A stretch of DNA of 64,000 nucleotides from Porphyridium purpureum. Taxonomy: Eukaryota. The notes under the pieces were generated by a model. It was not told where the DNA came from. It did no database searches and saw only the letters and a list, made by a program, of their open reading frames with translations. The position numbers and the translations under genes are program-made. Shown one piece after another: positions 1 through 43,509 of the stretch; position 1 is the stretch's first letter, and the number at the start of each line of letters is the position of its first letter. The stretch lies in assembly GCA_008690995.1 (NCBI GenBank), contig VRMN01000010.1, forward strand, positions 1 to 64,000. Reading direction: 5' to 3'.

Positions 1-445
1 CAGGCGGTCCGACGGAGCGGCACTCGCGGCAGCGGCGCGTCGCAAGCAGGCCTCCTTCCAGGCTGCTGCGCGCACCGGCGACGCTGCTGGCGTGTCGTTC
101 CAGGCGGTCATTCTGGACACGTACGGCCGGCGCGAACAGTGCGGAGCCGCGTTTCTGGAGACTCTGGTGGCGGCGTACATGCGGCACCGTGGAGTCAGCA
201 AGATGCTGGCGAGCACGGCGCTCCACCGGTCGCTGTCGCTTGCGGTATACCGCTCGGTGGCGGCGGCGGTGCTTCTACGGCACCCGGGCCCGACTCTGCC
301 AGTTGCCTCGCAGCACTGGCTGGAGACGGGCAGGCGCCTCTTTGTAGGCGAGGTACTCTCGGAATCGGAGGCAGAGTCGCACTGACTTTGCTGATACATA
401 GGTAAAGCACTTAGGCCCTTTAGATTTATAATGTAAAACGATTTC
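1..445 (+). mobile_element. 3' end of a non-LTR retrotransposon with a restriction-like endonuclease (CRE/SLACS/MoTeR-like); ORF is open from the window edge to the stop at 385
   Basis: Frame 2 reads AAARRKQASF...FQAVILDTYG...AAFLETL...LSLAVYR, the typical RLE C-terminus pattern (K..KY...F.P...ET.G...L....S.A..R). A short AT-rich 3' UTR ends ...TTC directly at the 11-mer repeat. Confidence 0.65.
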
Positions 446-471
446 AGAGTAACCCTAGAGTAACCCTAGAG
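446..471 (+). repeat. 2.4 copies of AGAGTAACCCT (reverse strand TTACTCTAGGG), candidate telomeric repeat
   Basis: agagtaaccct agagtaaccct agag read directly; the same motif recurs at 1044, 8442 and 43446. Confidence 0.7.
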
Positions 472-1043
472 CACGACCCGGCGACTTTTCCTTCGACAAC
501 AATGTCGTCGATGTTGCCGTGGTCGCGCCAGACCGGGTCGCCGCCGCTCGCTCGGAAGCGCGGCTCTTTTGCTGCCGCTCGCTGCGGCACCAGTCGGCTC
601 CGTTGGCCACGCAGCCAACATGGTGGCCTTCATCGTCACCACGTACGGCAACGTGGACGCGCCCGCACGTGCGCTTCTTTCTGTGCTCGCGCGCGGCACG
701 CCCGCGTGCGCCAGGTCCCGCCCAGCGGGCGCTGACCGTCCTCGCGGCCGTGTCCTGGCCGTGTACCGCGCCGCCGCACATGGCATTCTCTTGCGGTATG
801 CTCTGGCCCTCACGGCGAGCGGGCTGCGCTGCTCCCCCATGTGACGCGAATCGGCCCTCACGGCGAGCGGGCTGCGCTGGCTCCCCCATGTGACGCGAAT
901 GCTCGGCTCCTCCGAACAGAGCACCCCCGCGCACGAGGCCGGCGCCCTCCAACTTAGCCCCGTGAGCTGATCCAACTTCAGCTCCGACCACGATGAGTCA
1001 TCGTCTCCCTGAATTGGTTAAATTTTAACAATAAACTCAATTC
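472..1043 (+). mobile_element. Second, 5'-truncated and frameshifted RLE non-LTR retroelement fragment
   Basis: RPGDFSFDNNVVDVAV (PD..D nuclease motif, from 474), then across frameshifts RKRGSFAAA, VAFIVTTYG and LAVYRAAAHGILLRY, collinear with the first element. Internal ~48-bp duplication at 805-900. Ends ...ATTC at the 11-mer. Confidence 0.65.
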
Positions 1044-1056
1044 AGAGTAACCCTAG
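1044..1056 (+). repeat. Single telomere-like unit AGAGTAACCCTAG
   Basis: Exact match to the 446-471 motif, at the junction between element and satellite. Confidence 0.65.
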
Positions 1057-1472
1057 TGTTCAGTGCACTTGCGTAGTGTCCAGTGCGCGTTCGTAGTGTT
1101 CAGTCGTCCTCAGTAATGTTCAGTCGTCTTCAGTAGTGTTCAGTTCGATTCAGTAGTGTTCAGTGCACTTGCGTAGTGTCCGGTGCGCGTGCGTAGTGTT
1201 CAGTCGTCTTCAGCAGTGTTCAGCTCGTTTCAGTAGTGTTCAGTCGTTTTTAGTAGTGTTCAGCTCGATTCAGTAGGGTCCAGTGTGCTTCAGTAGTGTT
1301 CAGCTCGATTCAGTAGGGTCCAGTGTGCTTGCGTAGTGTTCAGTTCGATTCAGTAGTGTCCAGTGCGCTTGCGTAGTGTTCAGTGCACTTCATGAGTGTT
1401 CAGTGCGATTCAGTAGTGGTCAGTGTGATTCAATAGTGTTCAGTTCACTTCAGTAGTGTTCAGCGCGCTTCA
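1057..1472. repeat. Subtelomeric 20-bp minisatellite (CAGTAGTGTTCAGTNNNNTT-like, ~20 copies, 10-bp sub-period)
   Basis: Repeating cagtagtgtt/cagt.. units are visible throughout. Confidence 0.9.
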
Positions 1473-1519
1473 GCGTGATCATCCGCGCTCAGTCTCACTC
1501 GCGCGTATGCACACCCGCG

Positions 1520-2010
1520 CTAACCCGCTGCGCAGCTGGTTGTGCAGACTGCGTTTACCAACACGGTATGATGAGCGTGCAAAGCGTACAGCTCCCCTAC
1601 GCATCCCTGCTCCGCGGCCTTGCGCCACCACTCAATTGTCGCGATCTTGTCGGTACGCAGTCTGCGTAACCCGTTAAAAAGGGAAGCGAGCAACTGCACT
1701 GTGACCACGCGCCTCACTATTCTGCGGCCTTGTAGAACCACTTGATCACCGTGTTCTTGTCTTCAGGCAGACCGCCTAACCCATGAGAATAAGAAGTGCC
1801 CAGTTGCACGGCGCCTGTGCGTCTCCGGATTCCGTGGCTAGAGTAGCAGTAGCGTGTCTCTGAACCATGGATCAGCGGCACCACTTGACCGCTGTGCAAT
1901 GACCTGTGCCTAGATCGCTCCACTTATTCTCGCATCAGCGGGCCAAGTTGTTCTGGCTGCCTGCGTCTCCCTGTTCCGCCGCATTGCACCACCACTTGAT
2001 CGCCGCGCGA
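1520..2010 (-). pseudogene. Degenerate Sel1-repeat gene relic
   Basis: Fragments LGTSYSHGLGGLPEDKNTVIKWFYKAAE and IEWWRKAAEQG match the Sel1 units at 12.8-14 kb; broken by stops and frameshifts. Confidence 0.75.
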
Positions 2011-2500
2011 TGGTCACTTGTCAGATCGCGTTCGCCGTTGTCTTACAACAGGGCCACAGTTTTGCACGCGACCGCGAGTACCTCTTCCGTGGCCTTGCGG
2101 TATCACCACCCTGTCATGCGCTTGTTTTGCGCCGACCACTCCACGCGTGCGTACCATTCTCACCTGGCCTCCACTGCAAGCCCGCATCTCCCGCCTGTGC
2201 CGCGTTCTGCACAGATCTCAAGCTTATGCACGGCATGCGCGCTGTGCTGATCGCCGCGCGAGTGTCACTTGTCAGATCGCGTTCGCCGTTGTCTTACAAC
2301 AGGGCCACAGTTTTGCACGCGACCGCGAGTACCTCTTCCGTGGTCTTGCGGTATCACCACCCTGTCATGCGCTTGTTTTTGCGCCGACCACTCCATGCGT
2401 GCGTACCATTCTCACCTGGCCTCCACTGCAAGCCCACATCTCCCGCTTGTGCCGCGTTCTGCACAGATCACGAGCTTACGCGCGACCTACGCGCTGTGCT
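1997..2500. repeat. Tandem duplication, 251-bp unit
   Basis: tgatcgccgcgcga..gtcacttgtcagatc starts at both 1997 and 2248; the two copies are near identical. Confidence 0.9.
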
Positions 2501-2634
2501 GACGCATGGTCTGATGATCACTCCTCCTCCAAGCAACACAACAAGACGCCTTGCAGATCATGACGCGGAGGGGCCTTCTACAAGATTGCATGCACCTTTC
2601 GTCCTTGGATCGCACGACCCGCCACGGGCACTTT

Positions 2635-3169: not shown

Positions 3170-6100
3170 ATGCCGCACTTTTTGTGCAGAAAGGGCTGCG
3201 GCTCAGTCTTGACCAGTCAGAGCGCGCGCGACGTGCATGAGCGCTACTGTTTCTTACAGAGCGAGGACATCGATGGAATGTGCTGTCCAGAATGCATATT
3301 TGCTGTGAAGGTCACACCAGGAGAAGAAAAGAAAGCGCGGGCATACATTCGCAGGCATATGACTCGTATGCACCCCAGGCATTTGTCACGCTCCCCTTTC
3401 ATTGCTCCTTGCGCATCATTCGCGACGGCCAAAGGGAACACACTTCGACAAAACATCTGTAGCTCGGTCCGCTCCGCTCGCGCGATTGTCATTGGAACTA
3501 ACGCTGTGGCATCATCTTCCGCTGTCCGTGCAATCATGGACACGCCGTTGCAGCCGTACAATCCGGCGCGTACGCTGACTGGATCAGCATTGACGACGTT
3601 GGGATTTTACGACACATATGAAGACATGCTTGAAGCGTACTCACATGCCATTCGAGAACCAGCAGAGGAGAGTGTCATCTATGCGCGAGAGTGGTGTGAA
3701 TTTGCGAGGCGGGCAATCAGGCTTGCTCTCAAGACCACGCCACATCTGCTGAGAATTCCCGTGCCTGGCAAGCAGGGCAACCCATCGGAGCTTGACATGC
3801 ATGACCCAGAGGTATGGAGCGATGGATCAAAGTATAGAACTTTGGCGACCCTCAAAGACGAGACTTTGGAAAAGCGCATCCCGAACATCGCACGACTGTT
3901 TTCCTTTTACGCTTACTGGCTTTTGCAAATGAATCTCGAGGACGTCGTTGTGAAATACGAGCAGACCCACGTGCCAAGCAATACTCGTCCTGTGGTTGGC
4001 GCCCTTCAAAGCATTTTGAACTATGCACTTGAGCAACCTACAACATCCACCGGAAACACACGGCCAGCTGCACGCGAATTTTTGCGCTCGCACGCGCTCC
4101 AGCAAGTGAGTGACCGAAACGGAGAGCCATCAAGTATCCACGACGAAATGTCTGGATCGCAGTCCGGCACGTGTTTGACCAGTCGCAGTGCCTTAACGAT
4201 AAGTGAGTTGTCAGCCACGCAGCTCTGGGTTTTGAGAGCTGCGTGGGTTGTGAGGCTAATTGTGAAAGAGAAAGACCGGGAAATACAAACCTCAAACGAC
4301 ACGATTCTTTCCGACGTTCCCTGTGCGCAAGTACTGTACATGATGCACTCCGTCTTCAGAAGCGCGCAAGAGCCATCCACGTACGTGGCATGGAAAGCTA
4401 TGGGCAATGGTTCCTGGATGCACTTAAAGACGGAAGTGCTGGTGCAAGCAAAGGTCTTTGGTAATTTGTACAATGGCTCCAGAGCGGCCGCTCGAGCTTT
4501 GGTTGCCCGAGTTCTTGGAGCGCGCGATAACTTTTCGGTCCGGGTGTTGTCGCAGCATAATACAACGGCGCCAATGCTCGGTGAAATTATACTCGATGGC
4601 AGTGAACGACATGCAGCTCAGCCTGCGGAACTGCTCGCGAGCGCCAGACGCCAGAACATCGATTTCAACGCACTGAGCAATTTTGCATTACTTGCGTTCT
4701 CTGCCGCGTGTGCCCCGCCGCGAAAGTCAAGTATGGAAACTTTTGTTCTCGCTAGCCGAAGTGTTGGAAATTCACTTAGACCTGTTTTAAATACTCGTGT
4801 AGTGAGAGTTGTCGAGGTTGTTGAGAAGAAATTGGGTCGCGCGCTTGCAACTGAAACTGTTGAGCATCTTCCAACTGAGGAAGTCGCAGAAGTGCTGCTT
4901 ATCATGCATTGGATTGCGAGTGCATATATTGACGAGATACTTGGCCAGCAAAATCAGGGGCAAAATGTACCTGAGAGCATTGACTTTCGAAACTTTGGGG
5001 CCTGCGCCAGCAGAACGACTTGTGCAGCACTTAATCCGGAGGAGTGGATTGCACAAGTAGAATGTGCTGTTGGGCAGTTCTGCGCCGTGCCCATGACCTT
5101 ACGGGACTTGCGCAATCTTTACTTGCATTGCGTACGAGACAACGCTGACGCTTTCCGAGGAATTGCCGCCCCGCAAGGGATACAGCCCGTAGACACACCT
5201 GCGCAAAAGTACAAGATCCGCGGCGCAGGTCACTCGCTTGCGACAGACGCCGCATTCTACCTGGCTTCAGTAAAAGACGAAGACTGGTTTGCATTCACAG
5301 TGGAATGTCGCGACGCATGGCTTGCACTGATTGGCGCGGAAACTCACGCTTCGTCACGGATGGGCTCCGTGCATCCGAGAGAGCTTTCGCTCGGAGAATG
5401 GGCCTCACTGGCGGGTTTGACGCCAGACACATTGCTCCGTGATGTATATGGTAGCGCTTCCGTCGCCAGCCCGCAAGCAAGGAAGCAGCTTGAAATGCTG
5501 AACGAAATTCTGATGGACAAGAACGTTTGCGTACAATATCCTTGCGGAAGTGGTAAGTCAGCATCATACTTGTGCATGGAGAAAGTCGTTCGCTTGCAAG
5601 GTGCCTTTGTTCTGCTTTTGGTACCGCTTCGCGTTTCCATGTTTGCTGCATTGCAGGAGGCAAGAAGTAGAAGGATTGAAGCCGTTGACTTGTACTCATG
5701 TACCGAGCGTTCGCATGGCGGCCTCGTCGTCACCAGCATGGATGCACTTGCATCACAACGTGCAGCTCTTAGACGCATTGCAGAACGCATCGCACTCGTT
5801 GTCGTGGACGAGAGTCACGTCGTACTAGAACATAGCTCGTTCCGCGAGTCAATGTCCGTCAAGCTGAGCGCGTCGCTTTTGACGAAATCCTGCTTTGTAT
5901 TTCTCAGTGCGACGATAAGTGAAGATGCTGCTGCGTTCGTTGCCAAAGAGTTTGGTGTGACCATCGACTCCTTTTTGCGTGCACGACCACTTCGAGAATC
6001 ATTGAACATCAGCGTGACAGAGTTTGGCACGAGCGCAATCTGCACTCAACAGATTACGGCCGCCATCCAGGAAAATGCGCTTGCTCGTCGTGGGCGTGCA

Positions 6101-7444
6101 CTGATAATGTGTGCTACTCATGCAGAAGCCGACACATGGTTTGACGAAATGAGAAAGTCTTACTCGGATGCATGTTACAAACTGACAGCACGTGAAGCTC
6201 TCGACGCTGAGGCATTGCAGCAAGCGCGGGTAATCGTTGGCACATCCGCTGTGAGCTCATCTCTGAATTGCAAATCTGTTTTGTACTGCGCCGTGATGCG
6301 CGGAGCACATTCGCTCAGCCAAGTGGTCCAAGCATGGGGCAGAGTTGGTCGCGACGGTGAGCACGCCCGCTGCGAATTTTTCTTCGACAGAAATTTCCAG
6401 AACGCATTGGACCAGCGTGACAGCCCGAGCATTCGCCAGGTTCCAGGTTTTGAGCGCGACCCTTGGCATAGTAAAGCCGGTCTACGGCGCTTCGTTGAGA
6501 GTGCACTTGACTTATCCTCTCACGAAGTTCACAGCGTGCTCAACCTTTTAACCACTCGCTCCATGGTGACTCAGACAGCCAACCCAGTGACGGTGCCGCA
6601 GCCAAGCTTGCACGAGATGGTGCGGCCAAGTACGCACGTGGTTGCAGAACCAAGTTCGGGCATGATAGCGCAACCGACGTCGTACATGCTGGCACAGCCA
6701 AGCTCGCACACGGTCGCAGCGCCAAGCTCGCACACGGTCGCAGCGCCAAGCTCGCACACGGTCGCAGCGCCAAGCTCGCACACGGTTGCAGCGCCAAGCT
6801 CGCACACGGTTGCAGCGCCAAGCTCGCACGTAATGGCGCAGCCCACTTCGCACGTGCCGGAGCAACCAACTTTGCACTTGCTCGCGCAGGCCAGCTCGCA
6901 GCAGCACGAGGCGACGCCACTGGCTAGCTCTGCACCAGCGCGCGCGCTGGGCGAGCAATTACAGACGATCAGACAAGCAAGAGCGACATGGAATACTGCA
7001 ATGTACAAATGCATCTGGTGCAGTGGTGTCACATGTCTTGGCACATGCCAGAATCCGAACAGGTTTCCCAACACCTGCCCATACTGTGGGTTTCGATACT
7101 CACGGTCATCTGCAGCGGCCCACGTCTCCTGCAGCAAACGGTCGGCCGGAAATATCATCAGACCAAGACTCGCGCCAAACTTGGGCATGTGTTTCCGTTG
7201 TCTGGCCCCCACCGAAGTGTGCGAAAAGAAATGCGAAAAGGCTCCGAGCGCCTTAAAGCACAGAATGGAAGCCGTGTATCGGAAAGCTTTCTCCTTGATG
7301 GGCACTCCCGGATCTGGTGGAGCAGAAGAGTTGACCATCTTCTACACACACAAGCTGTGCGAACTCGTGAGCTGGGAAGGCTTCGAGTTGTACAAGCGAG
7401 CGACAAAGCTCATGGCGAATGAATGGAGCCTTCAGAAAGTATAA
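3170..7444 (+). CDS. Telomere-linked-helicase-like protein: N-terminal zinc fingers, tyrosine-recombinase-like region, RecQ-like SF2 helicase, Cys-rich C-terminus
   Basis: CxxxC..HxxxC and CPEC..HxxxxH fingers; helicase motifs PCGSGKS, LLVPL, VVDESH, LSAT, QAWGRVGRDG; YR-like PPR(4721)...LRDLR(5111)...AGH(5231)x8Y(5258); C-terminal CxxC pairs. First ATG at 3170. Confidence 0.85.
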   Translation: MPHFLCRKGCGSVLTSQSARDVHERYCFLQSEDIDGMCCPECIFAVKVTPGEEKKARAYIRRHMTRMHPRHLSRSPFIAPCASFATAKGNTLRQNICSSVRSARAIVIGTNAVASSSAVRAIMDTPLQPYNPARTLTGSALTTLGFYDTYEDMLEAYSHAIREPAEESVIYAREWCEFARRAIRLALKTTPHLLRIPVPGKQGNPSELDMHDPEVWSDGSKYRTLATLKDETLEKRIPNIARLFSFYAYWLLQMNLEDVVVKYEQTHVPSNTRPVVGALQSILNYALEQPTTSTGNTRPAAREFLRSHALQQVSDRNGEPSSIHDEMSGSQSGTCLTSRSALTISELSATQLWVLRAAWVVRLIVKEKDREIQTSNDTILSDVPCAQVLYMMHSVFRSAQEPSTYVAWKAMGNGSWMHLKTEVLVQAKVFGNLYNGSRAAARALVARVLGARDNFSVRVLSQHNTTAPMLGEIILDGSERHAAQPAELLASARRQNIDFNALSNFALLAFSAACAPPRKSSMETFVLASRSVGNSLRPVLNTRVVRVVEVVEKKLGRALATETVEHLPTEEVAEVLLIMHWIASAYIDEILGQQNQGQNVPESIDFRNFGACASRTTCAALNPEEWIAQVECAVGQFCAVPMTLRDLRNLYLHCVRDNADAFRGIAAPQGIQPVDTPAQKYKIRGAGHSLATDAAFYLASVKDEDWFAFTVECRDAWLALIGAETHASSRMGSVHPRELSLGEWASLAGLTPDTLLRDVYGSASVASPQARKQLEMLNEILMDKNVCVQYPCGSGKSASYLCMEKVVRLQGAFVLLLVPLRVSMFAALQEARSRRIEAVDLYSCTERSHGGLVVTSMDALASQRAALRRIAERIALVVVDESHVVLEHSSFRESMSVKLSASLLTKSCFVFLSATISEDAAAFVAKEFGVTIDSFLRARPLRESLNISVTEFGTSAICTQQITAAIQENALARRGRALIMCATHAEADTWFDEMRKSYSDACYKLTAREALDAEALQQARVIVGTSAVSSSLNCKSVLYCAVMRGAHSLSQVVQAWGRVGRDGEHARCEFFFDRNFQNALDQRDSPSIRQVPGFERDPWHSKAGLRRFVESALDLSSHEVHSVLNLLTTRSMVTQTANPVTVPQPSLHEMVRPSTHVVAEPSSGMIAQPTSYMLAQPSSHTVAAPSSHTVAAPSSHTVAAPSSHTVAAPSSHTVAAPSSHVMAQPTSHVPEQPTLHLLAQASSQQHEATPLASSAPARALGEQLQTIRQARATWNTAMYKCIWCSGVTCLGTCQNPNRFPNTCPYCGFRYSRSSAAAHVSCSKRSAGNIIRPRLAPNLGMCFRCLAPTEVCEKKCEKAPSALKHRMEAVYRKAFSLMGTPGSGGAEELTIFYTHKLCELVSWEGFELYKRATKLMANEWSLQKV
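6697..6829 (+). repeat. 24-bp coding minisatellite encoding (PSSHTVAA)n
   Basis: gccaagctcgcacacggt(c/t)gcagc x5.5, with degenerate units on either side. Confidence 0.95.
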
Positions 7445-7924
7445 AACCGACACTAGCTCCACTCTGCATGTGTGATTGCCTCATGAGTAAAAACACTGTG
7501 GTACGCTGCTGCCCATTGCCCACAACCCGCCGCCCCGTCCTCAAACTTCTCTAGACCACTCCTCGACCGCTTCGACCCCGACGACCACCCTCGCTCACAC
7601 TCCACGGCTAAAGGCTTGCCCACGAACACTGTAGGGATGACATTGAAATGAACATCGACCCGTCAAATGCAATCGTTTTAGTACGATGATTACTCTTACT
7701 AAAATAATTCTCCCACATAGAAACCAGAGGCTTCTGTACCAAAACGCTCATTTTGATCAGGAAAAGTTGTAAACATGGGGGTTCCGCATATGCGCTTGCC
7801 ATGGCGAGTTTTCGTGGCAAAGTGGCCTCGCTGTATGATTTGACTTTGGAAAGCTAGATTTCACTGGTAAAATCCATGCGCTCATGTAGTTGCCGCCTGT
7901 TTAACTAAAGACACGCTTCCTTTT

Positions 7925-8273
7925 GGTGACCACCCCCTCAGATTGATGCCATTTAAGTACAGAATGTGTATAAGTAACTGGAGCATTTTTATACACTTGC
8001 ATATGGTGACTACCCCCTCAGGAAACAATCATTTAGATACAACACGTCTCTATGAAAATGAGATACTTTCATACGCTTTCACACGGTGACTACCCCCTTA
8101 CGTTTGGTGACTACCCCCTCAAACAAGACGATTTTACCACGAAATTTCCTTCTGAAAAAAGCTAAATTTGTACTGAGTTTTGCATAAGCATTTCAATGCA
8201 ATTTTTGTAGCAGATGGTGACCACCCCGTAGCATTTGAAAACCACTAATATAGCAGATAGTGACTACCCCTCA
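7925..8273 (+). repeat. Six copies of GGTGAC(T/C)ACCCCCTCA-like motif, probably transposon subterminal binding sites
   Basis: Copies at 7925, 8005, 8085, 8106, 8216 and 8259; the first three are exactly 80 bp apart. Confidence 0.8.
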
Positions 8274-8520
8274 AAACCATTAAATCGAAGGACTGGCTCG
8301 AAGTAGGAGGCGTTTGAGAAAGGCGAAAATGTCTGCGGGTAGCTCTTCTCTGGCTCCACATTTGCCTGTGAAAACACTGGGCAATGCACTTTCCATTAAT
8401 GAGCTACACTAGGAAAAGGAAACCCTAACGCGAATTGCTATTAGAGTAACCCTAGAATGGAACTGTCCAACAAAATTAGATTATTTTGTAGCAAGCAACG
8501 GAACGTACTGTACCTCTGAG

Positions 8521-9781
8521 TCAAACCGATTTGAATTGGCGGTTTTCAGTGCGCCACCACTTAAGCACATGCATGAATGCTTCCCAAACGCGTCCGTGGT
8601 TGATACGCCGCCATATGAACTCCTCCAAATAAAGGTTCACACGATTTCCATCATAAGCAGAATCAGGCATGGTTGCTTTCACGGCCCGCCAAGTTCCTTC
8701 CACTGTATTCGTGTGCACTCCCGTAACCGGATCCTTGAAGTGCATTTCATGGTTTACGGTATAGTGTCTGAGTGTTATCCGTTCGACCCCAGTCACCTAG
8801 AACGGTTCAGTTAATCCGAAACCGGTAAGCCGTTAAACCGGTAGGCCGTTTAACCGTTTCTAGAAGCTTCTAGAGGTTCCAGAACCTTCTAGACGCGCGC
8901 AGAAATGCCAATGGTTTGCATTGTCATTTCTCTTGGCGCCTTGCTGTCCCTGACGGAAGTAAGGGTATAAAAAGGCGACGCGCCTGCCCGGACTAGCCGG
9001 TCAGGTCTTGCTCGGAGAGAGAAGCAGGCAAAGACGCAGAGAGTAATAAAGGCACAGCATTGGTAACACTGAGTGTCGGATGGTACTTCAAAATGAAGTA
9101 CGACTTCCAGCAATCCGTATGTATAATGGAGCCCGGGTGCACACGCTGCTGTATGATGGGAATTAAAGTGCGCGTTGTCCGGTTGGGCACCACTGTCATG
9201 AAGAGACGGCGTTCTTCAGTTCGTTCCACTCCGGCAAGCACCCATACCCCATCAACGCGATGTCCTCGATGGTACTTGCGCTTCCGAAACTTGCTTTCGT
9301 CGATTTCGACTGTAACATCCTGGCCACAAGTGGGAGCCTCATGCATAGCATCGTACTCGACATTGCACTGGCGTACATGCATGAGAATGCTGCGCACTGA
9401 GCTCCTCGCGAGTCTAGTCAACTCTGAAATCTGCGTGGCACAAAGACAGTGGAGCCAAAGAAAAACACAAAACAAGACATCGTGAAAAGCAAGATTTTTA
9501 TGGGCAGAGAAGAACGAATTTGTAGATCGAAGTGATACAAACTGCTGGCAAGCCTTTCTCTTGCACCTGAATGCACACTTTACCTGAATCTCGCGCATCT
9601 CCGCCGAGCAACCCACCGCAGGACAACGCATTTTTGCCGCAAGCACACCGATACTCATAAGGAACTGTATGCATGCATGCTCATCGGAGAGCAGTGCATA
9701 GACTTCCTTGAGCGTAGGAATACCGGCGTCCTCCATGCTCCTCCTCCCTTGCCCCTTCGTCAGCATGCATTCATGCTCCAT
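8521..9781 (-). mobile_element. Merlin (IS1595/ISXO2-like) DDE transposase interrupted by a solo LTR
   Basis: Zinc ribbon CPAVGC...CKRKAC; VEIDESKF.KRKYHRG, WVLAGVER, PGSIIHTDCWKSY, H.TVNH...F.DP.TGVHTNTVEGTW, YLEEFIWR. Removing the LTR and one TSD copy restores ...YHPTLRHYTVNH in frame. Confidence 0.92.
8773..9068 (+). mobile_element. Solo LTR (296 bp) with 5-bp TSD CTGAG
   Basis: TGTTATCC...GGTAACA termini; CTGAG at 8768-8772 and 9069-9073; internal TATAAAA (~8967) and AATAAA (~9045); homologous copy at 42855. Confidence 0.9.
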
Positions 9782-9845
9782 AACGTCAGGTTCGGTTTAT
9801 CGGTTTATTATTTCACTCTACCTCCTTGAGTACAGTTCATGGAGA

Positions 9846-11228
9846 ATGTACAGGTCGCACCCTCGCGCTCCGTCAGCCGCTGCACAGAATAAGCTAGACG
9901 CAGAGTTTCACGGGCGTTGGAAGTTTGTTATGGACTGTATCGGGTTCAAGGCTTTAGTCAGTGAGCCTCTGGGAAGCATGACAATGATGGATCTACGCAG
10001 AAAGGTTCGGGAGAACGAGCTGGAGCCCGTGACCAGGTCATTGATGGTCAAATTTCGGCAGCTGACGGGTTTAACGACGAGATGGTGCATAGATTTTGAC
10101 GCGAGCCAGCCAGGAAATCTGGTGTTTGCCGACTTTGCAATCACGGCTTTGCCGTGCAAACGGTTGAGCGCTGGTAAAACAGTGCTTTGGGCGAGGTCAA
10201 TAATGGACAGCCGCTTTCTACGATGGATTAGGGATACGCCAAGAGGTTACGCTAATCGCCTTGTCACGGAGGATCGGTTTGCGAATATGCCCAATGTCAC
10301 GGGTTTTCGCGTTCGGTGCGACGGTGATGTATGCAGTATGGTTCACTCGACGTCGGCGGGAGGAGCTGAAGACCTTGTTGCTCCTCATTCACCACGCGAG
10401 CTCATGTATGTTCAAGCTTATCATACGAGTCGTCACCGTGCTTCTACCAACGCGTTAAAGCCGCTAAAGTGGCCTGGTGAACAGCGCACAGTTACGTGGC
10501 CGACTGCCGTCCAACTGTGTAAGGCAGCCGATTGGCTGGCAGATGCAATTCGTGAGGAGACCAAGAATGACCGTGCCGGACAAGGTGTTCGAATTGAATT
10601 TAGGGTGAGCCTGAGACAGCACAGCTTTGCGGGTGTAGACGGTGAGTCCCTGTGGTTTGAACATGACACGGTCGAGCGCGTTGAGGAAAATGTCTGGGCC
10701 ATCGTTCTCCGATGGATGACGTCAGTGCTCTGCGGACAATATCTTCTGTGCTATCAGACGGACGAGCTCAACGATTATTTGCGAATCACGGCGGAGTGCT
10801 TGAGACTGACGGGTAGACGCGCGCTTGGACAGCTGGCCCGTATGAGTGACTTTGATGCAGATGGTCACTATTGCGAATCCGTCAGTTTTGCACGTCGTCC
10901 TCTGCATGCGTTGCTGATCTCGACATATATTTTGCAGACGGGACTTTTGCGCCGCTTGCCAACCGACAAGACGTGGTTTCGTCAGATTGTCATAGACATC
11001 TGTGGTTTTGACACATTCGTGGGGCAGCGTAAGGCAGGTAAAGTTGTATGGCTGAGGGTTACTGTAGGGTTTAGGGTTGGTGGTGGATGTACACTCCTGG
11101 CCAAGATGGTTGTCCCAGGTGCAATTTCAAGGTCTGAACTCCAGTTTTATAGTAAAAACGAGCGTTTTCATATAAAATCAACTAGAATACCTTTTTTAAC
11201 ATATTTTTGTTCCTCAGCTCAGAGGTAA
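9846..11228 (+). CDS. Uncharacterised ~400-aa ORF divergent from the Merlin transposase; 3' end runs into a telomere-like tract and the Tc1
   Basis: Long ORF with motifs WCIDFD, YVQAYH and GVRIEFRV; the last ~60 codons come from inserted sequence. Confidence 0.55.
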   Translation: MYRSHPRAPSAAAQNKLDAEFHGRWKFVMDCIGFKALVSEPLGSMTMMDLRRKVRENELEPVTRSLMVKFRQLTGLTTRWCIDFDASQPGNLVFADFAITALPCKRLSAGKTVLWARSIMDSRFLRWIRDTPRGYANRLVTEDRFANMPNVTGFRVRCDGDVCSMVHSTSAGGAEDLVAPHSPRELMYVQAYHTSRHRASTNALKPLKWPGEQRTVTWPTAVQLCKAADWLADAIREETKNDRAGQGVRIEFRVSLRQHSFAGVDGESLWFEHDTVERVEENVWAIVLRWMTSVLCGQYLLCYQTDELNDYLRITAECLRLTGRRALGQLARMSDFDADGHYCESVSFARRPLHALLISTYILQTGLLRRLPTDKTWFRQIVIDICGFDTFVGQRKAGKVVWLRVTVGFRVGGGCTLLAKMVVPGAISRSELQFYSKNERFHIKSTRIPFLTYFCSSAQR

Positions 11229-12640
11229 GCGCGCGCTTTTGCGGGACCCCATGAGGCCATGAAGGGGTTCAAGACATGTGAAAGAAGACTAACGCATCTA
11301 CTGCACTCGGGCATACGATCGCGACCAAGTCCAGCAACCGCAAGCATCGGAAACATGGCACCACGGCTCTCCGACTTCGAGAAAGGGCAGATTGACGCTC
11401 TGCACCGGCTCTGTCTGACGCCGCGGGCCATTGTAGCACGTCTTCATCCGCGACCAGACAAGACCCGACCATCGTACAAGACTGTGGAGCGATTTCTGAA
11501 GAATCGAGGCAAGAAAAGGGTTTTCAAGAAACCCGGACCGGCGCGGACAATATCGCCGAAATTGGAGCGTCGCCTGATTCGGCACGTCATTACGGATAGG
11601 TTGACGTCTGCACAGGCAGTGACGGAGCTGCAGCTTGCGTGCAGTGCGAGAACTGTTCGTCGTATCCTGCAGAGATCACCAGAGGTTCGTATTATCGCAC
11701 AGAGGCGAAAGTTCTTCATTTCGGAGAAGAACCGAGTCAAGCGGCTTGCATTTGCTCGAGAATACGTTCACAAGCCGCTATCGTTTTGGAAGAATGTCAT
11801 CTTCTCGGATGAAAAGATCTTTCGGCTGGACGGGCCACACGGGTACAACAAGACTTATCAGCGAACGCGAGGCCCTGAGCCCGCGCCAACTATGCGTCGC
11901 CATAGTGGCGGAGGATCCGCAATGTTTTGGGGTGCCATGTCGTGGCACGGACTGAGTACGTTGCATCGTGTTCAAGGCTCGCTGAATGCCGAGCGATATC
12001 GGCAGGTTATGCTGAACGTCATGATGCCCTGGGCACTGGAACTGCCTTGGCGCCTTGATCAGCCGGATTGTCCATTCATATTTCAGCAAGATAATGCGCC
12101 CGGACATGCAGCGCTGAGCACGCGCGAGCTGTTTGACACGGTCGGAATCGCACTACTTGATTGGCCAGCGCGGTCGCCGGACTTGAATCCAGTTGAGAAT
12201 CTGTGGGCGATCGTTTCTCGCCGTGTGCATTGGCAGGGACGCCAGTTTATGCGCCTCGATGACATGCTTCCAGTTATCTATGACTGCTGGCGAACGGAAG
12301 CGCCAGAGTATGTTGAGGCACTTTTCGAGAGCATGCCCCGTCGTCTGCAAGCTTGCATCGACGCCGGTGGCCGTCAAACCAAGTACTAGTTTCGTTAAGA
12401 CAGTTAAATCTCTTCTCATAAGCGTGTTTGTCCTCATCAACCTGTTTCATTGTATTTCTTTTCTGCGGCCCTTCTCACAGGTGTCTCACTGTTCTACGAT
12501 GCCTTTCTAAGCCCTTACCGCTTTCCCGTGCCGCGGATTCGTTTCGTGCCATCAAAACAGACGACAACCTAGTCGAAAAGCTGAGTTATTCACAAAAAAC
12601 TTCATTTAATCCTGTGGGACAACTAACTTGGCCAGGACTG
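11092..12640 (+). mobile_element. Complete Tc1-like DNA transposon
   Basis: 26-bp TIRs CACTCCTGGCCAAGATGGTTGTCCCA / reverse-complemented CAGTCCTGGCCAAGTTAGTTGTCCCA (23/26); TA on both flanks. Confidence 0.93.
11355..12389 (+). CDS. Tc1 DD34E transposase
   Basis: HTH N-terminus, VIFSDEK, FQQDNAPGH, WPARSPDLNPVENLW with 34 residues between D and E; no stops. Confidence 0.95.
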   Translation: MAPRLSDFEKGQIDALHRLCLTPRAIVARLHPRPDKTRPSYKTVERFLKNRGKKRVFKKPGPARTISPKLERRLIRHVITDRLTSAQAVTELQLACSARTVRRILQRSPEVRIIAQRRKFFISEKNRVKRLAFAREYVHKPLSFWKNVIFSDEKIFRLDGPHGYNKTYQRTRGPEPAPTMRRHSGGGSAMFWGAMSWHGLSTLHRVQGSLNAERYRQVMLNVMMPWALELPWRLDQPDCPFIFQQDNAPGHAALSTRELFDTVGIALLDWPARSPDLNPVENLWAIVSRRVHWQGRQFMRLDDMLPVIYDCWRTEAPEYVEALFESMPRRLQACIDAGGRQTKY

Positions 12641-12717
12641 TATAGTAATTTTAAACTGTAGACCACACCCTTCCCTTCCCAAAAATCACCTCTAACCATT
12701 CTCGCTTTACGCGAACG

Positions 12718-15700
12718 CTATAAACCTGGTCTTATCCAATCATCCAGCCCATTTACGTTTGCCTGTTCCGCGGCCTTGCGGTACCACTCGGCCGCGGCGC
12801 GCTTGTCCTGCCGCAGCCCGCCCATCCCTTTCGCGTAACAAATGCCCAATTTTAACTGCGCCGCTGCGTCTCCCTGTTCCGCGGCCTTGCGGTACCACTC
12901 GACCGCGGCGCGATCGTCCTGCGGCAGCCCGCCCTCCCCGTTCTCGTAACAAGTGCCCAAATTATTCTGCGCCGCTGCTTCTCCCTGCTCCGCGGCCTTG
13001 CGGTACCACTCGACGGCCGCGCGCTTGTCCTGCGGCAGCCCGCCCTCCCCGTTCTTGTAACAAGTGCCCAAATTAAACTGCGCCGCTGCTTCTCCCTGTT
13101 CCGCGGCCTTGCGGTACCACTCGACGGCCGCGCGCTTGTCCTGCTGCAGCCCGCCCTCCCCGTTCTTGTAACAAGTGCCCAAATTATTCTGCGCCGCTGC
13201 GTCTCCCTGCTCCGCGGCCTTGCGGTACCACTCGACGGCCGCGCGCTTGTCCTGCGGCAGCCCGCCCTCCCCATTCTTGTAACAAGTGCCCAAATTTTTC
13301 TGCGCGCGTGCGTCTCCATGCTCCGCGGCCTTGCGCCACCACTCGACCGCGGCGCGCTTGTCCTGCGGCAGCCCGCCCAATCCGAACTCGTAACAACAGC
13401 CCAAATTAAACTGCGCCGTTGCGTCTCCCTGCTCCGCGGCCTTGCGCCACCAATTGACCGCGGCGCGGTCGTCCTGCGGCAGCCCGCACTCCCCTTTCGC
13501 GTAACAACGGCCCAAATTAAACTGCGCGTCTGCAAATCCCTGATCCGCAGCCTTGCGGTACCACTCGACCGCGGCGCGCCTGTCCTGCGGCAGCCCGCCC
13601 TCCCCGATTTCGTAATGAACGCCCAAACCAAACTGCGCGCCTGCAAATCCCTGATCCGCAGCCTTGCGCCACCACTCGACCGCGGCGCGCTTGTCCTGCG
13701 GCAGCCCGCCCTCCCCGTCGTGGTAACAACGGCCCAAATTATACTGCCCCTTTGCGAGTCCCTGTTCCGCGGCCTTGCGGTACCACTCGACCGCGATGCG
13801 CTTCTCCTGCGGCAGCCCGCCCAAATCGTACTCGTAACAATAACCCAAACTGTTCTGCGCCGCTGCGTCTCCCTGCTCCGCCGCCTTAAGCAACCACTCG
13901 ACCGCCGTGCGCGTGTCCTGCGGCAGCCCGCCCAAACCCTCGTGATAAAAATAGCCCAGCCGGCCCTGCGAGTGAGCGTCGCCCAATTGCGCCGCCTTGC
14001 GGTACCACTCCAGCGCTTCCGCAAAGTCCTTGTTGTCCTCAGCAGTCCGACCACGTCGCTGCCAGTCCGCCGTGTCGCGCCGCGCCTGCTCCGCGGCGGC
14101 GGCGGCGCGATGCGCAGCTCTCGCGCCTCCTTCTCGCGCCGCGCTTGCTCCACCGCAGCAGCGCGTTGCGCGGCTAGCTCTCGCGCCTCCTTCTCACGCC
14201 GCGCTTGCTCTGCCGCGGCAGCGGCGGCCTCTTCTTCACGCTTCCGCGCAGCAGCAGCTTCCGCTTCGCGCCGCGCGGCAAGGTCGCGCGCTTCCTTCTC
14301 GAGGCGCTCGTGTTCCTCTGCGGCTGCCCGACGAACGGCGGCTGCGTGCTCTAGAGCCTGACGATCGCGCTCCGCTTTCTTCTTGTCCTCTTCAAGCCGC
14401 CTCTTCTCAGCCTCATTCTGTTGCCGTCTTAGCGCTGCCTGCTCTTCGGTCTCCACCGCCTTGAACCATTCAGACCCCGCCGGGCTGCCGAGCTTTGCGG
14501 CCTTGGCATACCACTCCTTCGCCAGGCTCCAGTTCTGCGGCACGCCCCGCCCAGAGTGGTGGCAGCGGCCATACTCAATCATGGCGTCCGTGCGTCCTTT
14601 CTCAGCGGCTGCGCGCACCCAACCGGCGCCATGTTCCAAGTGCTGGCTCCTGCCGTGCGAGCCGTCGAGCAAAATCTTGCCCAGCCGGAATTGGCCTTCC
14701 GCGGCACCTGATTCCGCTGCTAGCTTAAAATACTCATACGCGTGCGTCATGTTCCCCGCTTTCTCCCATTCCTCTGCGTAGCGGAGCTTGTCATCGGCAC
14801 TCAGCGTTTGCGCTTGTGCGGGCTGGGATACACTTGGCCCCGCCGAACTGCCTCCCGTGCTCGACACTGCGGCTCCTGACCGACCAGATGCCACCGTAAC
14901 GTGCGAAACGCGTGCACCCAACGCACCAACCTCTACCGTGCTCGCGTCAGAAGAGGACGCAATGGCAGAGACACAGGCCTGCTCCTTGCAAAATGCCACC
15001 GAAATTTTCGCCATGCTCGGGCGCTCTCGAGCATTCATTCTCAAGCATGCTTTAGCCGTGTCTACTAACCACGTCGGCCAGGCGTTTGCGTATGTACTTT
15101 TCTTCAGCCTGTGCCACGGCACGCCCTTCGTCGGATCCCTGAGTGCCATATCGATTTCCACCTGCGTCGCTCTGCCAAACATGGGCTCGCCCAATACCAT
15201 CTCATACAACATGACTCCAAACGACCACACGTCACAAGTCCGGTCATACTTGTCACCACGCATGACCTCTGGCGCCATGTACGCATCTGTGCCAGCCTTT
15301 GATTTTGCATATGACCCGGTGTTCTTCACGGTTGCCAACCCAAAGTCGCTGATCTTGGCCGTGTATTCCTCCGTGAGCAGAATATTCTGAGGCTTGATGT
15401 CTCTGTGGATCAGTTTCGCAGAATGCAGGTACTTGAGACCATTCACGATGCCAACAAAAATGTCCAACAGCTGCGCGCGGGGCAGCACACCCTGCATACT
15501 ACTTCGAAACATGTGTTTGTCCAGCGAGCCGTTCGCTGCGTATTCTAAAAGAATGAATGGCTTCCTGTGACGCTGCGTACCGCTCTCGAGCGGATAGAAC
15601 CCACCACGCGTCTGGATGATGTTCGTATGAGAGAGCCGCCACATCGCCCCGAGCTCGTTCTTCAACTGAATCAGCGCATCCATTGTTTCCGTCGGTACTT

Positions 15701-16541
15701 CCTTGATGGCCACCGTTGACCCAAAGCATGTGCCTTTGTAAACAATTCCAAAACCTCCAGAGCCCAGCATAACGTACTCGTCCAATTCGTCACGCTCTTT
15801 TCGGACGTGCGCGACGTCGACATACCATGGCTCCGTTTTCGTGGGTCCGGTCGACAAGCCGCTGGAATTAGAAGCGTCTGTGTACGGCTTGTGGATATCC
15901 ACGCGGAGACTGTGCATCTGAAGAACAGCGCTCTTTTCTGATCCGGAACCAAGTTGCTCTTCGAGCTTGGGTCGATCCTTGACCTTATCCTTCTCCAGAG
16001 CCAAAAGTATTTGCTGGTGCCTATGTTCTTGCACATGCGTGCCTCGTTTGTGAGAGTCCGCAAGCTTGAACAAAACGATGCGCGATAACTGAGCTTCGAG
16101 CTTGTCCAGCGTATCGCTGCAGGTCTGAAATTCGGCCTGGTAGTTCTTTGCCCTCATCACGCGACGAAACTTCTCATTCCAGCGTTCTGCGGACGAGAAC
16201 TTTTCCACAAGCGAGCAGGTGGACTCGAGCGCGGACGTCAGATCCGCCAGGCACTCGAGCAGGCGACCGTGCTGCGCCTGGTCTGTGCCCGACCTCATCT
16301 TTTCGCCTTGGCCACCAAAATAATCAAGCAGCACGCTCTCAATGCCGGCGGCCTGCTTTGCCAGCTGCTTACATGTGTCGTGCATGGCTCGCGCGGCCTG
16401 CGCCAGCTCCACGATGACCTTGATGACCGCGTACGCCGCCGCAACGTACGGCAAAACCTCGCCGACATCGTTGGCGATCGTGCCTCCGACTTTGAGGGCT
16501 TCCTCAAACGCCGCGCGCTCCGCTGCGCGACCTGCCGCCAT
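12718..16541 (-). CDS. MLKL-like helical N-terminus + TKL-type protein kinase + Sel1 repeats; one frameshift near 14116
   Basis: Kinase motifs GSGGFG, VAIK, HRDIKPQN, DFG, APE; Sel1 units and an E/A/R coiled coil follow. At gagctgcgcatcgc (minus strand) the natural sequence continues in the frame of ORF 12718..13986 (..AAEQARRDTADW...EWYRKAAQLGDA..). Confidence 0.85.
12763..13983 (-). repeat. Eleven tandem 111-bp Sel1 repeat units
   Basis: 37-aa unit GDAAAQxNLGxCYxxGEGGLPQDKRAAVEWYRKAAEQ. Confidence 0.95.
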
Positions 16542-17435
16542 GACGCCGTAGACGAGCCGCCGCGCGGACTCTGGCTCTGTTCTCGACGCGTGCGAGCGTG
16601 TGTACCCGGCTATCCCAAAGACAGTGCCGTCGAGATTCCACCGTCCACTCCGTGCGCAACCACCACGCGCACCGATAAAGCCAAACCGTCTCTACCCCGC
16701 TTGCACGTGCTGCGTGGTCCACGCCGCAACGCGTGGCAAACGTGAGATGCCGAAGCAATTTATACTGTGCTCGGGTCGCAGTGCGGTGCTTACCGTGCAC
16801 ACTGCGCGCAGAACAATAGGCGCAAGCCCCTCAAAATCGGCGGCATCCAAATCAGCCGCGCCACTCGGACACGCGCAACAGAATTCGCATTCTGCTGGAT
16901 AAAACAGTGCCCAAAACGAGCTCGCTTATGGCCCAGCGCCAACGGCGCGTGTGGAAACGGTGGCCACCGGGCAGAAGTCGCCGCGGTGCATAGCAAATCG
17001 AGGCGCTTTAGTAGAAGCGCGCTCACACGCAAGAACGCGCCAGGGGCGCGGGAGGGAATAAAAACGACGCGTGTCAGCCAGCGGCGAGGCGCGCGTTTCG
17101 ACGTGATGCGGCTGCCCGCGCGGTTGCGTACCAGCGCGGCGCGGATTCGCGCGTGTAGAAAATCGGGGTGGGCTAGCGAAAGGGGGTACACTTGTGAGCG
17201 ACAACATGGTTTGACAGGCAACGCGCGCATGGCGCGAGCGGAACCGCTCATGCGCGGTGGCTACCATGTCCCACACAAGGCACTAGTTACGTGTCGCGCA
17301 AGGTCCTCGGTGGTCAGCCCGAAGAACACATGGTACATCTTGGTTTGCCATATGCAAGCAGCGTGGCGGAAGTAGAGACGCTTGCAATCTAACCTTTTCA
17401 AATGCCTCTCATATTCACATGCTTCTAAGCACGGT

Positions 17436-21304: not shown

Positions 21305-22213
21305 CTAGTCAGCTGGGTATTTCAAAGAAAACTGCGCAGCTGTATGTCCCTGTTCCGCGGCCTTTCGGTACCAGTCGACCGCCGCACGCTTATCCTGCGG
21401 CAGACCACCCTCACCGTTGCAGTAATAATAGCCCAAATGATACTGCGCCATTGCTTCTCCCTGTTCTGCGGCCTTGCGGAACCAGTGAACCGCCACGCAC
21501 TTGTCCTGCGGCAGACCGCCCCACCCGTTTTCGTAATGAACTCCCAATTTACACTGCGCCGCTGCGCAACCCTGTTCCGCGGCCTTGCGGTACCAGTCGA
21601 CTGCCGCATCCCTATCCTGTGGCAGCCCGCCCTCACCGTTGCTGTAATGAGCGCCTAAATTATGCTGCGCGCTTGCGTCTCCCTGTTTCGCGGCCTTGTG
21701 ATACCACTCGACCGCCGCGTGCATGTCCTGCGGCAGCCCACCATCCCCGTTGTCGTAATAAACGCCCAAATTACTCTGCGCCCTTTCGTTTCCGTTTTCC
21801 GCGCCCTTGCGGTACCACTCGGCCGCCGCGCGCTTGTCCTGCGGCAGCCCGCCCTCCCCGTTACTATAAAAGACGCCCAAGTTAAACTGCGCTCCTGCGT
21901 CTCCCTGTTCCGCGGCCTTACGGTACCACTCGGCTGCCACGCGCTTGTCCTGCGGCAGCCCGCCTTCCCCGATGCAGTAACAATAGCCCAAATTGCATTG
22001 CGCCGCTGCTTCTCCTTGTTCCGCGGCCATACGGTACCACTCGACCGCCGCGCGCTTGTCCTGCGGCAGCCCGCCCCACCCATTCTGGTACCAAACGCCC
22101 AAATTATACTGCGCCTGTGCGTTTCCCCGTTCTGCGGCCATGCACCACCACTCGACCGACGCGCGCTTTTTCTTGGCCGAACCGCCCTCCGCGTGGCTGT
22201 AACTAACGCCCAT
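21305..22213 (-). pseudogene. Sel1-repeat array (~8 units), 5'-truncated paralog
   Basis: Same 37-aa unit; upstream reads DAAA-stop where Q is expected, and no kinase lies upstream. Confidence 0.75.
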
Positions 22214-42253: not shown

Positions 42254-42854
42254 CGCGCATCTGTCTCTCTGTGAAGCCACCCTTCCACGCTCACTCGCTG
42301 CGCTCACATCCGCACCCGCCTCGAGCGCTCACGATATAATTAGGGTTTGTAACCCTAGCGCTGTCAAGCTGCGCGCGTGAGCGGTGCCGGTATCACCGTG
42401 TCGAGCTGGAACTCGGCGGGCGATGGGACAGCAGTGTGTGCAAAAACCAATGGCACGCGCCAGCTGGCGGCGTGATGGAAAGTTCCTGTTCAGCCTTTTT
42501 GCGTCGGGGTAACAGATGCTACGAAAAGACGAAACATGCGTCTTTGAGATTGGATATTGTGGCTGTTTAACGCTTCTCATTCTAACTAGATAACTATGAT
42601 AAAACTTCGTAACCTCCTTCCCTGCATTTACATGCTCGCTTCGCGGAACCGACGAGTGCATGCCGCGATTTCCATGCCTTTCTTGCTCTCGCGAGTCGGC
42701 TTGGCGCAAACGAGCACCGGCAAGGGGGACTCGTGCGACGCACTCGAATGCTCGCGGCGTTTCCCGGGATGCCGCGTGAATGCGTCACATTCCTGCCACA
42801 AATGACGCATTTCGTGGCGCGCAGTGCTTTGTCTATTACGTCACTTTGCGGATG

Positions 42855-43147: not shown

Positions 43148-43509
43148 AGATGCATCTTGGAATCCTTGCCAAAGACAAAACTACTCACAGCAGTGACACA
43201 AGCAGTTGGGAAAAACTATACAAGAATGCATCTCAGAAGCGTGGGCTGCCGGGCGGATAGTTCCAGTTAGGCGAACGGCGCCCGTCTTGGGTGGCAGTAA
43301 AGGTTGGAGCTTTGGCGAGTGGGAGATTGTTCGGGCACCGTGAGGACCTACCGCGTGCATTAAAGCTCGCGGTTCTATGACAGCACTCTCAATTCCTCCG
43401 AGGCGTGAATGAGCGAGTCGTAAAGCACAATACGTAATGAGGGAGCCCTAGAGTAACCCATTGTAGGGCTAAAAGTCCAGACTCGTGGTGATGTTAAAGG
43501 TTATCAAGA

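What the first reader, a model, noticed from the sequence alone, without database searches (positions are those of the whole stretch)
446..471. Candidate unusual telomere repeat TTACTCTAGGG
Seen: the 11-mer CCCTAGAGTAA occurs in tandem at 446-471 and as 13-15-bp exact matches at 1044, 8442 and 43446. A reverse-strand variant (AGGGTTACTGTAGGGTTTAGGGTT) lies at 11055. Known: it fits the TT(n)AGGG telomere pattern, and red algal telomere repeats are often non-canonical. Inference: this is the organism's telomerase repeat.
Basis: partly seen in the sequence, partly recalled or inferred. Interest (0 to 1): 0.7.

Follow-up and report, generated by a model that had tools for sequence, protein, structure and literature searches.

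The report
Candidate Porphyridium telomere repeat between retrotransposons
An 11-letter repeat sits directly behind each of two stacked, cut-off jumping genes, next to a multi-copy helicase gene in red-algal DNA, and is likely this alga's still-unidentified chromosome-end (telomere) repeat, trapped between elements that probably insert into chromosome ends.

Summary
The repeat is real: exact tracts of 26, 13, 15, 14 and 10 bp plus a reverse variant, far above chance. The tracts at 446 and 1044 each follow the 3' end of a different RT + restriction-like-endonuclease (CRE-like) retrotransposon. The two families are about 40-46% identical in protein and have unrelated 3' ends. They are stacked head to tail, followed by a satellite and a multi-copy RecQ-like helicase. 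Database copies are named Porphyridium purpureum. In public sequencing contigs, tract length varies between copies, a 6-nt TAACCC variant occurs, and other 5'-truncated copies join behind the tract. Accession order puts element genes within a few genes of four ends of Mb-size scaffolds. This is the layout of fungal MoTeR/FoTeR telomeres, so the 11-mer (G-strand TTACTCTAGGG) is probably the host telomere repeat, trapped between telomere-targeting elements (about 0.6). Not shown: a terminal array, telomerase, or a telomerase RNA; the longest tract seen is about 3 units. Main rival: the elements carry the motif and maintain the ends themselves. The P. purpureum telomere was unresolved in published experiments, so this gives a directly testable probe.

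The parts
1..445 (+). 3' end of CRE-like non-LTR retrotransposon, family A: C-terminal 127 aa (2-382), stop codon, AT-rich 3' UTR of about 60 bp; runs off the window's left edge
   Evidence: 98-100% identity to C-termini of RT proteins named P. purpureum; translation
446..471 (+). 11-mer tract, 2.4 units (C-rich strand on +), between family A's 3' end and a 5'-truncated family B copy
469..1043 (+). 5'-truncated, frameshifted family B copy that begins at the endonuclease motif (ARPGD...VDV); 3-nt overlap (469-471) with the tract; internal 48-bp duplication at 805-900; 3' UTR about 970-1043
   Evidence: tblastn to P0013/P0020/P0021; other B copies continue upstream of 469 in 3 of 4 runs (loose ends)
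1044..1056 (+). 11-mer tract, 13 bp, directly behind family B's 3' end and in the same register as at 446
1054..1473 (+). 10/20/100-bp satellite that starts out of the tract (subterminal-repeat-like)
   Evidence: a related satellite follows family A plus tract in runs X1 and X3
1571..2502 (.). degenerate copy of Sel1-repeat DNA with a 251-bp duplication
   Evidence: self-BLAST to 12889-13911 and 22032-22165; Sel1
3170..7444 (+). RecQ-like helicase, multi-copy, telomere-linked-helicase-like, with N-terminal Cys/His motifs
   Evidence: DEAD + Helicase_C; cluster of 6 members named DNA helicase Q-like 5; N-terminus
8442..8456 (+). isolated 15-bp tract, about 60 bp past the stop of a Merlin-like transposase; no element coding trace upstream
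11055..11078 (-). reverse-orientation degenerate tract (11-mer with 1 mismatch, then 7-mer and 6-mer units), 12 bp left of a Tc1-type element
42341..42358 (.). inverted pair of short telomere-like motifs about 90-105 bp upstream of the first ATG of a CS/Sel1 gene
43446..43459 (+). isolated 14-bp tract (one unit + 3 nt) about 50 bp upstream of a degenerate gag-like ORF

Best explanation
The tracts at 446-471 and 1044-1056 are short spacers behind the 3' ends of two different CRE-like retrotransposons stacked head to tail, and are likely trapped remnants of the host's telomere repeat (G-strand TTACTCTAGGG), into which these elements probably insert near a chromosome end that would lie to the left of the window. 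Shown: the tracts, the two element fragments, their shared register, variable tract lengths in other copies, mixed-family stacks and the neighbouring multi-copy helicase. Inferred, by analogy to MoTeR/FoTeR: the element's endonuclease nicks the telomere, or uses its free G-strand 3' end; the RNA 3' end pairs with the repeat and primes reverse transcription; incomplete copying leaves a 5'-truncated element, which is joined or healed through 2-5 nt of microhomology; each insertion traps 0.4-3 units of the repeat. The 6-nt TAACCC units would be template-slippage products. Isolated tracts and AACCCTAG promoter-type sites would be ordinary interstitial copies.
For: (1) Families A and B share about 40-46% amino-acid identity. 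Their last 100 bp align no better than shuffles (score 15 vs mean 13.5, sd 2.1), yet both end in the same 11-mer in the same register, as expected for a shared host target. (2) Behind family A's 3' end the motif stops at 449, 457, 460, 464, 465, 466, 468 or 471 before different flanks; other 5'-truncated copies join behind it (468->316, 471->883); a TAACCC insertion variant occurs (5 runs laid of 23 listed). (3) Gene models that fuse B then A (P0013), A then D (P0010) and A then truncated B (P0143) point to mixed head-to-tail stacks elsewhere. (4) Accession order brackets two scaffold boundaries with element or helicase genes...4355 and ...4357 | ...4359, and ...6269 and ...6271 | ...6275, i.e. 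4 ends of 1.0-2.4-Mb scaffolds (positional numbering assumed). 16 of 25 distinct contig sizes carrying element proteins are under 100 kb. (5) 4 of 5 named helicase copies lie within 5 accessions of an element gene. (6) The layout is the same as MoTeR/FoTeR: 5' end toward the tip, telomere repeats at the 3' end, inter-element tracts as short as AGGG to 2 units, and (FoTeR) helicase co-location (PMC7367193 passages; PMC12857005 passages and section 19). (7) The motif resembles Galdieria's CCCTAATAAA (PMC8287931 passage). Human-type and Cyanidioschyzon-type probes gave no BAL31/Southern signal in P. purpureum (PMC3622300 passage). (8) The motif also occurs at 4 sites with no element trace.
Against: No terminal array was seen. 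The longest tract in any data here is about 3 units (window 2.4 units; joints), and the window's left edge lies inside an element. TERT and telomerase RNA could not be searched (no genome). Published TRAP assays found no telomerase activity in P. purpureum, though none of the listed primers appears designed for this motif (primer names only). One element cluster (...9395-9403) appears internal on the 5.7-Mb scaffold, inferred from gene counts. Assemblies break at any long repeat, so scaffold-end position is not proof of chromosome-end position, and the named records may share a source with the window. On the 1.0-Mb scaffold the helicase is numbered nearer the boundary than the family C gene. 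[quoted passage not shown] Whether families C and D end in the motif was not seen.
Confidence: 0.6

Rival explanations
1. Retrotransposon-built ends (Drosophila-like). The ends are extended mainly by serial addition of four CRE-like families; the 11-mer is a vestigial telomere motif carried on the elements' RNA 3' ends and used to prime on the previous end; telomerase is weak or absent.
For: Only short tracts were seen. Four co-existing families form one clade (support 1.0) and mixed stacks. No telomerase activity or telomere probe signal was published for this species. The 3-nt overlap at 469-471 fits RNA-end annealing as well as healing.
Against: Isolated tracts away from elements and variant units fit a free repeat-adding enzyme. 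CRE-type telomeric elements in fungi live with telomerase. Contigs cannot show that arrays are absent.
Confidence: 0.2
2. The locus is subtelomeric, but telomerase makes another or a mixed repeat (for example mostly TTAGGG-type units), and the 11-mer is a conserved 3'-terminal variant belonging to the element lineage.
For: TAACCC units are interspersed, and 6- and 7-mer units occur at 11055-11078. MoTeR carries its own variant repeats. A and B share ATT(T)C just before the motif.
Against: A human-type probe gave no signal in P. purpureum (the authors note DNA-quality problems). The window has no 10-bp run of the TTAGGG repeat. An 11-mer tail conserved across otherwise unrelated 3' UTRs needs a target to keep it.
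Confidence: 0.13
3. Not telomeric. The elements stack on themselves or on a dispersed microsatellite-like target at internal sites, and assemblies merely break there.
For: One cluster appears internal. Family A's 3' ends join several different long flanks. An earlier AI note describes an internal self-stacking CRE-type array in another genome (unchecked).
Against: The motif has TAGGG telomere form, with the C-strand behind the 3' end. A near-identical multi-copy RecQ-like helicase lies beside the stacks on several scaffolds. Four scaffold ends are bracketed.
Confidence: 0.07

Closest known systems
MoTeR1/2 (Magnaporthe oryzae) interstitial telomere tracts (PMC7367193, passages read)
   Same: Head-to-tail stacks of truncated RT+REL elements, with telomere repeat at every 3' end and very short tracts between copies; the 5' end faces the tip (here inferred from the strand).
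   Different: Red alga, not a fungus; 11-nt non-canonical motif; four families at 36-52% identity rather than one plus a derivative; terminal array not shown here.
FoTeR + telomere-linked helicase (Fusarium oxysporum; PMC12857005, first part, passages and section 19; bioRxiv 2024.02.27.582403, passages)
   Same: Element stack next to a multi-copy RecQ-like helicase; C-rich repeat directly behind the element 3' end; REL motif of similar layout.
   Different: FoTeR 3' tracts are 3-8 units of TAACCC, against 0.4-3 units of an 11-mer here; the helicase's Cys/His spacings deviate from the TLH pattern; no homology to fungal TLHs was found in the one search run (one search returned 1 hit).
Galdieria telomere repeat CCCTAATAAA / T2AG3T3A (PMC3622300, PMC8287931, PMC9812998 supplement; passages)
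   Same: Red-algal, 10-11 nt, TTAGGG-like core plus an insert.
   Different: The insert here is CTC-containing (TTACTCTAGGG); Galdieria's motif is seen as arrays at scaffold ends, whereas this one is seen only as short internal tracts.
LINE/CRE and LINE/CRE-Cnl1 repeats listed for P. purpureum (PMC6811547 Supplementary Table rows)
   Same: Probably the same elements (24 + 11 hits, 45 kb); identity not checked.
   Different: The paper's main text and its 7 supplementary files have no word beginning 'telomer': no target or end position was reported.

Membership tests
Telomerase-made telomere repeat | Tandem array at physical chromosome ends | not testable with these tools
   No genome held; only short-read contigs were laid; the longest tract is about 3 units
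Telomerase-made telomere repeat | G-strand runs 5'->3' toward the end; consistent strand at an end | tested here: inconclusive
   5 of 6 tracts are C-rich on +, which fits a tip to the left, but the tip itself is not in the window
Telomerase-made telomere repeat | T(x)A(y)G(z)-like short unit | tested here: met
   TTACTCTAGGG has a TAGGG core; it contains 2 C, unlike the plain formula
Telomerase-made telomere repeat | Templated by a telomerase RNA; TERT present | not testable with these tools
   No genome to search; Rfam found nothing in the window; the 43446 site is a weak candidate only
CRE-clade REL non-LTR retrotransposon | Single ORF with N-terminal zinc fingers, RT, and C-terminal CCHC + REL | tested here: met
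   RVT_1 in 7 of 7 element proteins scanned, with weak C2H2 hits in 3; C-x10-C-x9-H-x3-C-x8-RH-x20-E-x10-RPxD-x8-D in family C. Spacings differ from the SLACS/CRE pattern quoted. Only the C-terminal parts lie in the window.
CRE-clade REL non-LTR retrotransposon | RT groups with CRE/SLACS/MoTeR/Cnl1 in a tree | not tested
   No named reference of that clade came up among the listed hits; the tree shows only that the four Porphyridium families form one clade. RepeatModeler labels CRE and CRE-Cnl1 exist for the species. The only PDB hits are R2 proteins.
MoTeR/FoTeR-type telomere-targeting element | 3' end always followed by the telomere-type motif | tested here: met
   Families A and B in the window, and all A 3' junctions shown (4-26+ nt); not seen for C and D; loose-end tables were cut (24 rows hidden)
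MoTeR/FoTeR-type telomere-targeting element | Confined to chromosome ends | tested here: inconclusive
   4 scaffold ends bracketed and 16 of 25 contigs small, but one cluster appears internal
Telomere-linked helicase (TLH) | RecQ-type helicase motifs; near-identical multi-copy family | tested here: met
   (6 members, 97-100% identity to the window)
Telomere-linked helicase (TLH) | Two N-terminal C2H2 motifs and the TLH domain | tested here: inconclusive
   C-x3-C-x12-H-x3-C and C-x2-C-x20-H-x4-H deviate from the patterns quoted; no TLH-domain profile was available

The most novel reading that the evidence does not exclude
Porphyridium chromosome ends are built mainly by four co-existing CRE-like retrotransposon families that add themselves serially, using a vestigial 11-nt telomere motif as the priming handle, with telomerase weak or lost: a Drosophila-like end system in a red alga, run by a different retroelement clade.
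Probability: 0.2. Interest if true: 0.88.

Novelty: new variant of a known kind. Interest (0 to 1): 0.62.

Why it matters
The telomere of P. purpureum, a model red alga, resisted TRAP, dot-blot and BAL31 tests (PMC3622300), and red-algal telomere motifs are described as mostly missing or fragmentary (PMC7046594). A specific 11-mer makes the question testable at once: a probe, a TRAP primer, and a 14-nt template string for finding the telomerase RNA. It would also extend MoTeR/FoTeR-type telomere stacks, with a TLH-like helicase, to red algae. I found no report of this motif (six rotations, 28 listings, none on telomeres or algae by title) or of Porphyridium telomeric retrotransposons. The TeloBase database itself was not available; only its paper's one supplement was searched, with 0 hits. 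Subscription papers are not covered.

Tried and rejected
(1) Search for long arrays in contigs (arithmetic). In run X3, 31 of 39 laid contigs cover little beyond the 26-bp tract. Their summed depth is about 19,900, roughly 22-30 times that of the longer unique-looking contigs (660-900), against 12,900-18,100 on family A. In X14, none of 5 contigs is pure repeat. (2) Collection scans: 26-mer in metagenome contigs, 1 hit (L001); the 901 of 3,809 bases read show an AT-rich degenerate repeat run with no visible element flank, so it was set aside. 22-mer in viral contigs, 0 hits. (3) The idea that the 8442 tract marks the relic 3' end of a fifth family: a C-terminal profile of families A-D hit only the two known fragments, and the 8284-8409 frame ranked 6th at best of 2,046 pieces; rejected. 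(4) 43446 as a telomerase RNA template: the region folds well (z -2.95, 1 of 200 shuffles as good), but there is no Rfam hit, no T4 run for 1,279 bp, and it precedes a gag-like ORF; not supported. (5) Other known motifs as runs in the window: only TTTAGGG-type at about 11065. (6) The protein atlas gave no answer in 4 tries. Exact look-up of 3 window ORFs found none. (7) The first P. purpureum genome paper and the first MoTeR paper could not be read, so chromosome number is not cited. bioRxiv supplements were not consulted. File 1 of the PMC3622300 supplement and file 5 of the PMC9812998 supplement were not searchable and may bear on novelty. (8) The scan's earlier notes held nothing for this genome or sequence.

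Full report
Observation. The window holds AGAGTAACCCT x2.4 at 446-471. Maximal exact matches to the endless repeat are 26 bp (446), 13 (1044), 15 (8442), 10 (42349) and 14 (43446) on +, and 9 bp (11055) on -, where 16 of 17 bases match. Simulated sequence gives 0.0 matches of >=12 bp per window in 100 runs and 0.0 one-mismatch matches of >=15 bp in 40 runs, against 5 sites observed. The feature is real. The literal CCCTAGAGTAA is exact only at 453 and 43446; the other hits are rotations.

Organism and anatomy. The frame at 2-382 is 94-100% identical to the C-termini of 15 database proteins. Ten of these carry an RT domain, and the 9 named ones are from Porphyridium purpureum. Relatives fall into four RT+REL families, A-D, at about 36-52% identity, which form one clade against 20 outside proteins (FastTree support 1.0, midpoint root). 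Window 1-445 is the 3' end of family A. Window 469/472-1043 is a 5'-truncated, frameshifted family B copy that starts at the endonuclease motif. Each is followed at once by the 11-mer, in the same register. Their last 100 bp share nothing else (alignment score 15 vs shuffled mean 13.5, sd 2.1), apart from ATT(T)C just before the motif. Then come a 10/20-bp satellite (1054-1473), decayed Sel1-repeat DNA and a RecQ-like helicase at 3170-7444, with 6 near-identical members in its cluster. Further right lie DNA transposons, Sel1/kinase genes and then ordinary housekeeping genes.

Other copies. I laid 5 of the 23 listed runs, all as contigs. Behind family A's 3' end the motif stops at 449, 457, 460, 464, 465, 466, 468 or 471, and different flanks follow (in one search, 24 loose ends were shown and 24 hidden). 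Two joints show other 5'-truncated copies behind a longer tract: A from position 316 (run X1) and B from 883 (run X3). In both, the tract's last letters run into the element's own letters (my reading). Untruncated B copies continue upstream of 469, so the window's junction has a 3-nt overlap. A 6-nt TAACCC unit is interspersed in X3 and X1. Fused gene models show B-then-A, A-then-D and A-then-truncated-B neighbours.

Position. Protein accessions of the named records appear to run along scaffolds (locus tags and accessions step together in two pairs; positional order is assumed). A family C gene and a helicase (...4355...4357; 1.0-Mb scaffold) and a family A gene (...4359; 1.85-Mb scaffold) bracket one boundary. 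Family A genes (...6269...6271; 2.3 Mb) and a family B gene (...6275; 2.4 Mb) bracket another. 4 of 5 named helicases lie within 5 accessions of an element gene (two of them on one scaffold); the fifth is 166 away. 16 of 25 distinct contig sizes with element proteins are under 100 kb. Against: the cluster ...9395-9403 on the 5.7-Mb scaffold looks internal, given 9,898 genes; assemblies break at any repeat; and these records may not be independent of the window's source.

Mechanism. In Magnaporthe, MoTeRs point their 5' ends to the tip, trap part of the telomere as a short interstitial tract (from AGGG to 2 units at stable junctions) and always carry telomere repeat at the 3' end (PMC7367193 passages). 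FoTeRs do the same and sit beside telomere-linked helicases (PMC12857005). The window matches this point for point, with the 11-mer in the place of TAACCC. I therefore infer target-primed reverse transcription on the telomeric G-strand, microhomology joining or healing of truncated 5' ends, and a chromosome tip to the left. A motif kept at the 3' end of families that share nothing else there, variable in length, with slippage variants, and also present away from elements, is best read as a host repeat (0.6).

Limits. No array longer than about 3 units was seen. The contig-depth arithmetic gave no sign of large pure arrays but cannot show absence (see Tried and rejected). TERT and telomerase RNA could not be searched. 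So the same data allow element-built ends with an RNA-borne motif (0.2), a different or mixed true repeat (0.13), or internal stacks (0.07).

Known versus new. Known red-algal motifs are A2TG6, A2TG7 and Galdieria's T2AG3T3A. For P. purpureum, TRAP with the primers tried and BAL31/Southern with human-type and Cyanidioschyzon-type probes failed (PMC3622300 section 13 and passages). The genome paper lists LINE/CRE and CRE-Cnl1 repeats but never mentions telomeres (PMC6811547 passages and supplement search). Its group later wrote that the genome shows no clear subtelomeric region (PMC9812998 peer-review file, part 3). A list of telomeric retrotransposons names Chlorella's Zepp as the algal case and no red alga (PMC10088271 passages). 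My searches found no report of this motif or of such stacks in Porphyridium. CRE membership rests on domain layout and the published repeat labels, not on a tree with named references. The terms telo-box, Merlin and Tc1, and the Drosophila comparison in detail, are from my own knowledge, backed by Pfam hits and a search-listing abstract. Verdict: a real feature and a good, directly testable telomere candidate within a known kind of telomere-retrotransposon system; new variant of a known kind; interest 0.62.

Noticed in passing
window 42351, 54632-54639 (-), 54851, 54861: The 8-mer AACCCTAG (the junction of the repeat) occurs 8 times against 0.3 expected. Four are outside the long tracts and lie upstream of genes (CS/Sel1 gene; between divergent PRMT5 and cation-efflux genes), like plant telo-boxes (recalled).
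   Followed up: partly
window 8515-9780 (-): Merlin/IS1595-like transposase split by a solo LTR (8773-9067) with a 5-bp target duplication CTGAG; a related solo LTR lies at 42856-43148 (84% identity).
   Followed up: partly
window 11090-12642 and about 46249-47199 (-): Tc1/mariner-type elements; the first has 28-nt inverted ends and an intact-looking transposase frame.
   Followed up: no
window 7911-8270: Spaced direct repeats of GGTGACTACCCCCT (80-bp and 43-bp spacing) in AT-rich DNA just past the helicase; origin unexplained.
   Followed up: no
window 12852-16691 (-), 21305-22219 (-), 40679-42328 (-): Expanded Sel1-repeat genes, one with an MLKL-like N-terminus plus kinase plus about 10 Sel1 repeats; a possible subtelomeric defence-type family.
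   Followed up: no
window 17436-19313 (-): ABC-class ATPase (ABC_N, ABC_ATPase, MRB1590_C) found in two separate frames; 18663-18983 has a 68% copy at 2457-2816 inside the subterminal block.
   Followed up: no
window 43410-43660 (+): The 14-nt tract is exactly one unit plus 3 nt (template-like) inside a hairpin, and the region folds at z -2.95; no Rfam hit, and it precedes a gag-like ORF.
   Followed up: partly
window 9702-11228, 27572-29041, 32607-34874, 35664-36698: Long ORFs with no significant Pfam match.
   Followed up: no
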